The notes under the pieces are model-generated. The model was not told the DNA's origin. It searched no databases and was given only the letters and a program-made list of their open reading frames with translations. This document shows, piece after piece, positions 32,896 to 34,668 of a stretch of DNA of 64,000 nt (position 1 is its first letter; each line of letters starts with the position of its first letter). Origin of the DNA: the human T2T-CHM13v2.0 reference genome, Homo sapiens. A program made the position numbers and the translations under genes. The stretch is from the NCBI RefSeq assembly GCF_009914755.1, contig NC_060925.1. One strand, given 5' to 3'.

Positions 32896-33275
32896 AAAGT
32901 GGTCACCTTATTTTAATGGGAAGGCAGCAACCTGAAAACCTAGTCATCCTGGAGCATCCAGCAGAGAAAATTTCTATTGCAAGAAGTAAACACTTGATTT
33001 TGCCTTCCAGACAGATCATTTCATTATTCAAAGAACATTTTTTTTCAGAAGGACCATGAGATATGCAAATATATAGCAGAGATTTTTCAGGGTACACAGG
33101 TGTTAGAAGCTAAAAGTAGTGGAGCAAGGTGACAAAAAAGAGATCCTTTCTAGCGGGCAGTGAAATGCCTATATATTATTTTCTTTAGAGCAAGATTCCC
33201 TTTCCAAGTATGAACTTAAACTGACCTATCCAGGTACATATTATTATTTTCTTAGAAAATGTGTGTGTGTGTGTA

Positions 33276-34256
33276 CACAGCAAAAGAAACTACCATCAGA
33301 GTGAACAGGCAACCTACAGAATGGGAGAAAATTTTTGCAATCTACTCATCTGACAAAGGGCTAATATCCAGAATCTACAATGAACTCAAACAAATTTACA
33401 AGAAAAAAACAAACAACCCCACCAAAAAGTGGGCAAAGGATATGAACAGGCACTTCTCAAAAGAAGACATTTATGCAGCCAAAAGACACATGAAAAAATG
33501 CTCATCACCACTGGCCATCAGAGAAATGCAAATCAAAACCACAGTGAGATATCATCTCACCAGTTAGAATGGCGATCATTAAAAAGTCAGGAAACAACAG
33601 GTGCTGGAGAGGATGTGGAGAAATAGGAACACTTTTACACTATTGGTGGGACTGTAAACTAGTTCAACCATTGTGGAAGTCAGTGTGGCGATTCCTCAAG
33701 GAACTAGAACTAGAAATACCATTTGACCCAGAAATCCCATTACTGGGTATATACCCAAAGGATTATAAATCATGCTGCTCTAAAGACACACGCACACATA
33801 TGTTTATTGTGGCACTATTCACAATAGCAAAGACTTGGAACCAAGCCAAATGTCCAACAATGATAGACTGGATTAAGAAAATGTGGCACATATACACCAT
33901 GGAATACTATGCAGCCATAAAAAATGATGAGTTCATGTCCTTTGTAGGGACATGGATGAAGCTGGAAACCATTATTCTCAGCAAACTATCGCAAGGACAA
34001 AAAAACCAAGCACCGCATGTTCTCACTCATAGGTGGGAATTGAACAATGAGAACGTATGGACACAGGAAGGGGAACATCACACACCAGGGCCTGTTGTAG
34101 GTTGGGGGGAGGGGGGAGGGATAGCATTAGGAGATATACCTAATGTTAAATGACGAGTTAATGGGTGCAGCACACCAGCATGGCACATGTATACATATGT
34201 AACTAACCTGCACGTTGTGCACATGTACCCTAAAACTTAAATAATAATAAAAAAGA
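33276..34256 (+). mobile_element. L1PA (L1PA4-like) 5'-truncated ~1 kb 3' end, ORF2 remnant frameshifted
   Basis: ORFs 33259-33567 and 33569-34153 give the L1 ORF2 C-terminus; young-type 3' UTR with G-rich tract and A tail. Confidence 0.97.
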
Positions 34257-34292
34257 AAGAAAGTTGGACTTAAGAACTGTAAAAATGCAAGG

Positions 34293-34637
34293 TGATATAA
34301 TTTGGATTTGTGTCCCCACCCAAATCTCACATCAAATTATAATCCCCAGTATTGGAGGAGGGGCCTGGTGGGAGGTGATTGGATCATGGGGATGCTTTCT
34401 TATGGTTTCGCACTATCCCCCTAGTGCTGTCTTATGACAGAGTTCTCAAGAGATCTGCTTGTTTAAAAGTGTATAGCACCTCCCCACACCCCCCTCCTCT
34501 TGCTCCTGCCGTGTTAAGTGTGCTCACTTCCCCTTCGCCTTCCACCATGATTGTAAGTTTTGGTGATGCCTCCCCAGAAGCAGAAGCTTGCACAGCCTGC
34601 AGAACCATATGCCAATTAAACCTCTTTTCCTTATAAA
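34293..34637 (+). mobile_element. MST-type MaLR LTR, truncated at its poly(A) site and part of the L1 3' transduction
   Basis: TGATATAATTTGGATTTGTGTCCCCACCCAAATCTC start; ends ATTAAACCTCTTTTCCTTATAAA followed by poly-A; U5 end missing. Confidence 0.9.
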
Positions 34638-34668
34638 AAAAAAAAAAAAGAAAACGTGTGTGTGTTCA

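What the first reader, a model, noticed from the sequence alone, without database searches (positions are those of the whole stretch)
33254..34665. L1 3' transduction terminated by the poly(A) signal of a captured MST LTR
Seen, in order: TSD AGAAAATGTGTGTGTGT (33254-33270); 5'-truncated L1PA with its own A tail; ~35 bp of unique sequence (AAGTTGGACTTAAGAACTGTAAAAATGCAAGG); an MST LTR that stops ~15 nt after ATTAAA (34615-34620); a second poly-A (34635-34649); and the TSD again, AGAAAACGTGTGTGTGT (34649-34665, one CpG-type change). Established: L1 reads through its weak poly(A) signal and mobilises 3' flank, and MaLR LTRs supply poly(A) sites. Inference: this LTR fragment was moved here by L1, not by retroviral integration, and the ~380-bp transduced tag identifies the source L1.
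Basis: partly seen in the sequence, partly recalled or inferred. Interest (0 to 1): 0.7.

Follow-up and report, generated by a model that had tools for sequence, protein, structure and literature searches.

The report
L1 transduction ending in MST LTR
A truncated LINE-1 copy, 30 unrelated bases and a cut-off old LTR ending in a poly(A) tail sit between two copies of one 17-base target sequence in an RGS7 intron, likely an ordinary LINE-1 read-through event, although its donor site was not found in this genome.

Summary
Observation confirmed. Window 33254-34665 holds TSD, 5'-truncated L1 (33276-~34254, 2.4% from its 19 nearest copies), its A tail, a 30-bp single-copy spacer, an MST-type LTR complete at its 5' end but lacking the last ~52 nt, A15 starting 14 nt after ATTAAA, and the TSD again. 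The 17-mer occurs nowhere else in the window at <=2 mismatches. Best reading (0.87): an L1 3' transduction polyadenylated at the LTR's own signal.

Two corrections. (1) A third copy of the target motif follows two head-to-tail Alus (35269-35282), so the L1 likely reused the 5' TSD of an older Alu. (2) The predicted donor was not found in CHM13: eight searches gave a best whole-LTR match of 83-84% and no second spacer, where about 95% was expected. The tag therefore does not identify a source here; the donor flank was probably deleted, or my search missed it.

The mechanism is known, with a near-exact mouse precedent (Lama2 dy-Pas, L1 polyadenylated in a transduced IAP LTR). The insertion is antisense in an RGS7 intron with no sign of function. 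Interest 0.22.

The parts
33252..33259 (+). L1-endonuclease-type target (TT|AGAAAA on the top strand; consensus recalled as TT/AAAA, given as 5'-TTTTAA-3' in PMC3215922)
33254..33270 (+). 5' target-site duplication (copy 1)
   Evidence: 16 of 17 match to copy 2; no other match at <=2 mismatches in the window
33271..33275 (+). five junction bases, likely (GT)n slippage or microhomology
   Evidence: origin inferred
33276..34254 (+). 5'-truncated L1 (ORF2 C-terminal remnant with a 2-bp deletion near 33561, 3' UTR, AATAAA at 34246-34251); L1PA4-like by recalled diagnostics
   Evidence: 94-96% to 39 nearest copies; 23 of 964 positions differ from the majority of 19 copies
34249..34262 (+). first A-rich tail (the L1's own)
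34263..34292 (+). 30-bp single-copy spacer, inferred to be donor 3' flank
   Evidence: 32-mer at <=3 mismatches: only self in the genome; 22-mer: 50 hits against 88 for the control, 0 of 49 non-self hits followed by an LTR
34293..34637 (+). MaLR solo-LTR piece (MST type, MSTA-like by recall), 5' end complete, last ~52 nt missing
   Evidence: 78-83% to 39 other copies; ends compared
34615..34620 (+). ATTAAA poly(A) signal of the LTR
   Evidence: present at the same place in other copies
34635..34649 (+). second poly(A) tail, A15
   Evidence: 0 of 40 alignments to other copies have poly(A) here
34649..34665 (+). 3' target-site duplication (copy 2); likely also the 5' TSD of the Alu that follows
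34669..34964 (+). Alu 1 (AluS-type, Sg-like by recall), likely older than the L1
   Evidence: 12 of 278 non-CpG differences against 18 of 964 for the L1, Fisher p=0.026
34965..35265 (+). Alu 2 (AluY-like by recall), likely inserted in the tail of Alu 1
   Evidence: head-to-tail, period 297; age not separable from the L1, p=0.34
35269..35282 (+). third copy of the target motif (14-nt core identical to copy 2)
   Evidence: (D4, D5)

Best explanation
A 5'-truncated L1, a 30-bp spacer and an LTR piece ending in A15 lie between two copies of a 17-bp target sequence, likely inserted as one L1 read-through transcript that was polyadenylated at the LTR's own signal. Shown: the order of parts, the TSD, the LTR's intact 5' end and its stop 14-17 nt after ATTAAA. 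Inferred steps: (1) a hominoid-age L1 (L1PA4-like, recalled ~15-20 My) sat ~30 bp upstream of an old MST solo LTR in the same orientation; (2) transcription passed the L1's AATAAA and was cleaved in the LTR, losing its last ~52 nt; (3) target-primed reverse transcription stopped after ~1.37 kb; (4) the nick reused the endonuclease site kept in the 5' TSD of an older AluS, giving three motif copies; (5) the donor flank was later deleted from the human lineage or this haplotype, or escaped my search. The copy is antisense in an RGS7 intron and likely neutral.
For: TSD brackets L1+spacer+LTR+A15 and is not a chance match. By eye the L1 tail is followed by no copy of the bases before the L1's 5' end, so the L1 has no TSD of its own. 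The LTR stops where 0 of 40 alignments to other copies do, and no 3' remainder lies within 30000-40000 (best local score 22). The LTR is as far from its family (83-87%, substitutions only) as family members are from each other (82-90%), while the L1 is 95-96% to its nearest copies: an old LTR inside a young TSD. Alu 1 is more diverged than the L1. MaLR LTRs supply poly(A) sites to human genes, on the LTR's plus strand (PMC2553571, passages). Mouse precedent in PMC6466679 (passages). Same-orientation insertion into existing TSDs is described in PMC3215922 (passages).
Against: No donor or sibling in CHM13. Best non-self matches: 83% over the LTR, 86% over 109 nt, 91% over ~90 nt (that locus is 78% over the whole LTR with no spacer), 88% over 168 nt. 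No L1 tail runs into the spacer (0 of 39; 0 of 19). PMC3024322 (passages) counts a transduction as confirmed only when a source hit exists; this one fails that test. The TSD is low-complexity and copy 1 has five extra bases. No orthologue or empty allele was seen; both flanks are single-copy.
Confidence: 0.87

Rival explanations
1. The RNA was not from an active full-length L1. Either a host transcript whose 3' end already held a truncated L1, spacer and LTR was retrotransposed in trans, or reverse transcriptase switched from an LTR-terminated RNA to an L1 RNA.
For: Gives the same TSD and poly(A) structure. Without a donor the length of the parent L1 is unknown. Template switching and trans mobilisation are described (PMC6500023, background passage).
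Against: Needs the same missing donor flank. The L1's own AATAAA and tail are intact before the spacer, as read-through predicts. Trans mobilisation is less efficient than L1 cis preference (passage; recalled).
Confidence: 0.07
2. Two insertions: an older retrocopy (spacer+LTR+A15, old enough for its donor to sink into the family background) and a later L1 that landed at its 5' end without a TSD.
For: Would explain why no ~95% donor exists. The site was demonstrably reused by Alus.
Against: Needs an L1 landing within a few bases of TSD copy 1, in the same orientation, with no TSD of its own; no copy of the motif follows the L1 tail.
Confidence: 0.03
3. The LTR is native to this site; an L1 inserted upstream and a deletion removed the LTR's 3' end.
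For: No donor elsewhere. The A-rich end of these LTRs can attract insertions: locus L002 has Alu-like sequence 13 nt past that point.
Against: Leaves unexplained the A15 starting 14 nt after ATTAAA, the 16/17 motif at the L1's 5' junction and the third motif copy.
Confidence: 0.03

Closest known systems
L1-mediated 3' transduction (partnered), as catalogued in CHM13 by Hoyt et al. (bioRxiv 10.1101/2021.07.12.451456; passages: 183 highest-confidence L1 3' events)
   Same: 5'-truncated L1, first tail, foreign 3' sequence, second poly(A) after a hexamer, one TSD around all
   Different: No progenitor found, so it would probably not reach a source-confirmed tier. I did not see their supplementary Table S13, which may list this locus.
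Mouse Lama2 dy-Pas allele (PMC6466679; passages)
   Same: L1 transduced an LTR and the insert is polyadenylated inside that LTR
   Different: Mouse, recent, nearly full-length L1, IAP LTR, source known (IAP inserted within the source L1), mutagenic. Here human, old, MST LTR downstream of the L1 tail, source missing.
[quoted passage not shown]
   Same: Same-orientation L1/Alu queue sharing an endonuclease target, with spacers under 24 bp
   Different: One member of the queue carries a transduction
MaLR-derived poly(A) sites of human genes (PMC2553571; passages: 292 MaLR sites)
   Same: Plus-strand LTR signal ends a read-in transcript
   Different: Here the transcript was a retrotransposon RNA, recorded as DNA; the table names MLT1C, not MST

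Membership tests
L1 3' transduction | L1 3' end with its own tail followed by non-L1 sequence | tested here: met
L1 3' transduction | second poly(A) 10-30 nt after a poly(A) hexamer, untemplated in relatives | tested here: met
   ATTAAA 34615, A15 from 34635; 0 of 40 alignments to relatives have it
L1 3' transduction | one TSD around L1 and tag, at an endonuclease-type site | tested here: met
   16 of 17 match, unique at <=2 mismatches in the window
L1 3' transduction | source locus holding the tag without the poly(A) | tested here: inconclusive
   None found in one haploid assembly. DNA searches score only 40 candidates and withheld stretches read N; no ape or other human genome was searchable.
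L1 3' transduction | empty orthologous site in an outgroup | not testable with these tools
   No primate genomes held; no paralogous empty site
Retrovirally integrated MaLR solo LTR | complete LTR with both ends and a short TSD of its own | tested here: not met
   3' ~52 nt missing, replaced by A15
L1PA4 / MSTA / AluSg / AluY subfamilies | diagnostic positions against curated consensus | not testable with these tools
   No repeat library here; names are recalled. Only divergence was measured.
CLIQUE (shared-TSD queue) | adjacent same-orientation L1/Alu elements joined by a repeated target motif | tested here: met
   three motif copies, 3-nt gap before Alu 1

The most novel reading that the evidence does not exclude
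The 375-bp tag is a molecular fossil: the only surviving copy of a locus that was deleted from the human lineage after an ancestral ape L1 copied it, so ape genomes should hold the donor (spacer + complete LTR, perhaps with the source L1). Such donor-less transductions could serve as dated markers of lost ancestral sequence.
Probability: 0.45. Interest if true: 0.38.

Novelty: new member of a known kind. Interest (0 to 1): 0.22.

Why it matters
It matters little by itself: one old, likely neutral insertion of a well-known type. It is a clean example of three known things at one site: L1 read-through, an LTR poly(A) signal ending it (the tail marks the cleavage site used in the germ line, 14-17 nt after ATTAAA), and reuse of an endonuclease site. 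It also shows that an LTR fragment can be much older than its insertion site, which would mislead dating by repeat family. The only open point is the missing donor; if apes have it, the tag records a human-lineage deletion.

Tried and rejected
Donor candidates checked and rejected: C8:28.52 Mb and C4:67.89 Mb (no spacer); the 9 best LTR hits; all 49 non-self spacer hits; 7 hits; 6 hits. The closest L1 (L030, 96.3%) shares 1 of 23 variants and has another 3' flank. No paralogous empty site. No positive control with a known ~95% paralogue was run, so search sensitivity is only estimated: a 5%-diverged donor would keep ~145 intact 16-mers against <=34 seen in held copies, and would be missed by the 32-mer and 22-mer scans in 7% and 2% of cases, indels not counted. 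Near-identical duplicate LTRs were retrieved together (three chr7 copies; X/Y pair), which suggests ranking by similarity. A single insertion spanning copy 1 to copy 3 was rejected because copy 2 matches copy 1 better and follows its own poly(A). Alu 1 entering after the L1 was rejected on divergence (p=0.026, a modest margin). Literature: searches showed no paper naming this locus in their listings (2 papers with RGS7+LINE-1+transduction, listing only, not read). Szak 2003 and Pickeral 2000 were not read.

Full report
Observation. The sequence reads on the + strand: TT, a 17-bp motif (33254-33270), five more bases, L1 from 33276, AATAAA at 34246 and an A-rich tail to 34262, 30 non-repeat bases, an LTR from 34293, ATTAAA at 34615-34620, A15 at 34635-34649, the motif again (34649-34665), two head-to-tail Alus (34669-34964, 34965-35265) and a third motif copy (core 35269-35282). 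Copies 1 and 2 match at 16 of 17. Although the motif is low-complexity, at <=2 mismatches it occurs only at these 2 places in the window and 0 times in 266,147 bases of other loci; the 14-nt core is exact only at 34652 and 35269.

The L1. Of 9,432 candidates 40 were scored; the 39 non-self copies are 94-96% identical. All 19 fetched copies continue 5' of the point where the window copy starts, so it is 5'-truncated. It differs from their majority at 23 of 964 positions, 18 non-CpG, and has a 2-bp deletion near 33561. From recalled diagnostics and ages this is L1PA4-like, hominoid-age; no repeat library was available to test the name.

The LTR. It aligns to other copies from its first base (34293) to 34637. 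Intact copies go on for ~52 nt; in 40 alignments from 34 held loci (some redundant) none runs into poly(A) there, and the missing part is not found in 30000-40000. The tail begins 14 nt after ATTAAA (up to 17 if three templated As are counted). The LTR is 83-87% identical to 9 close copies, which are 82-90% identical to each other, so it is far older than the L1. MST/MSTA is a recalled name.

Mechanism. One TSD encloses L1, spacer, LTR and tail, and the L1 has no TSD of its own. An old LTR cut at its poly(A) site inside a young TSD is what L1 read-through followed by target-primed reverse transcription gives. Each step is established elsewhere: read-through to a downstream signal (bioRxiv 2021.07.12.451456, passages), MaLR LTRs as plus-strand poly(A) donors (PMC2553571, passages), and an L1 insert polyadenylated inside a transduced LTR (mouse Lama2 dy-Pas, PMC6466679, passages).

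The site was used before. Copy 2 and copy 3 bracket the Alu pair. Alu 1 has 12 of 278 non-CpG differences from the majority of its 15 nearest held copies against 18 of 964 for the L1 (p=0.026); Alu 2 has 8 of 280 (p=0.34). The Alu reference sets are small, so these figures are rough. The likely order is Alu 1, then Alu 2 into its tail and the L1 transduction into its 5' TSD, the last two in unknown order. PMC3215922 (passages) describes such same-orientation queues.

The donor is missing. A donor should be ~95% identical to the tag. Results: junction 74-mer, 40 of 40 candidates scored, no non-self hit covers the spacer; whole tag, 40 of 6,867 scored, best 83%; spacer 32-mer at <=3 mismatches, self only; 22-mer, 50 hits against 88 for the reversed control, 0 of 49 non-self hits followed by an LTR; LTR sub-pieces, best 86%, 91% and 88% with 40 scored of 1,612, 915 and 3,617, the followed-up ones lacking the spacer; L1 tail + spacer, 40 of 199 scored, none past query base 53 of 86. 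Estimated miss rates are low, but no true positive control was run, only top candidates are scored, and withheld stretches are invisible. I weigh the structure more: the rivals that need no donor each require several coincidences. Loss of the donor flank from the human lineage or this haplotype is my estimate of the likeliest reason (about 0.6 overall; about 0.45 for loss in all humans).

Function. The hub's annotation places the window in an intron of RGS7 on the - strand, so both poly(A) signals are antisense to the gene, the tolerated orientation for intronic LTRs (PMC1794541, passages). Both flanks are single-copy. Nothing here points to a function.

Verdict. Real, mostly well read by the first stage, and a new member of a known kind. 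No paper naming the locus appeared in the listings; the supplementary transduction table of Hoyt et al. was not seen and may list it. Interest 0.22.

Noticed in passing
window 34669-35282: Two head-to-tail Alus (85% alike, period 297) bracketed by copies 2 and 3 of the target motif; both copies keep the CpG that copy 1 lost.
   Followed up: yes
window 34263-34287; loci L064 and L101: The spacer resembles, over ~22 nt with 3 mismatches, a stretch inside two loci that look like MaLR LTR sequence; it may be a decayed LTR scrap or chance.
   Followed up: no
L002 (G000:C3:55.97 Mb): An MST-type LTR is followed by Alu-like sequence 13 nt past the A-rich poly(A) region, suggesting that region is itself an insertion target.
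   Followed up: no
window 31436-31493 and ~31500-32130: (TAGA)14.5 microsatellite beside what reads by eye as an older L1 fragment on the - strand.
   Followed up: no
window 34545-34634; L107, L108: The LTR's short 3' part, which aligns with a ~10-nt gap to many copies, is shared gap-free with several loci at 88-91%, so it marks a sub-lineage, not a private deletion.
   Followed up: partly
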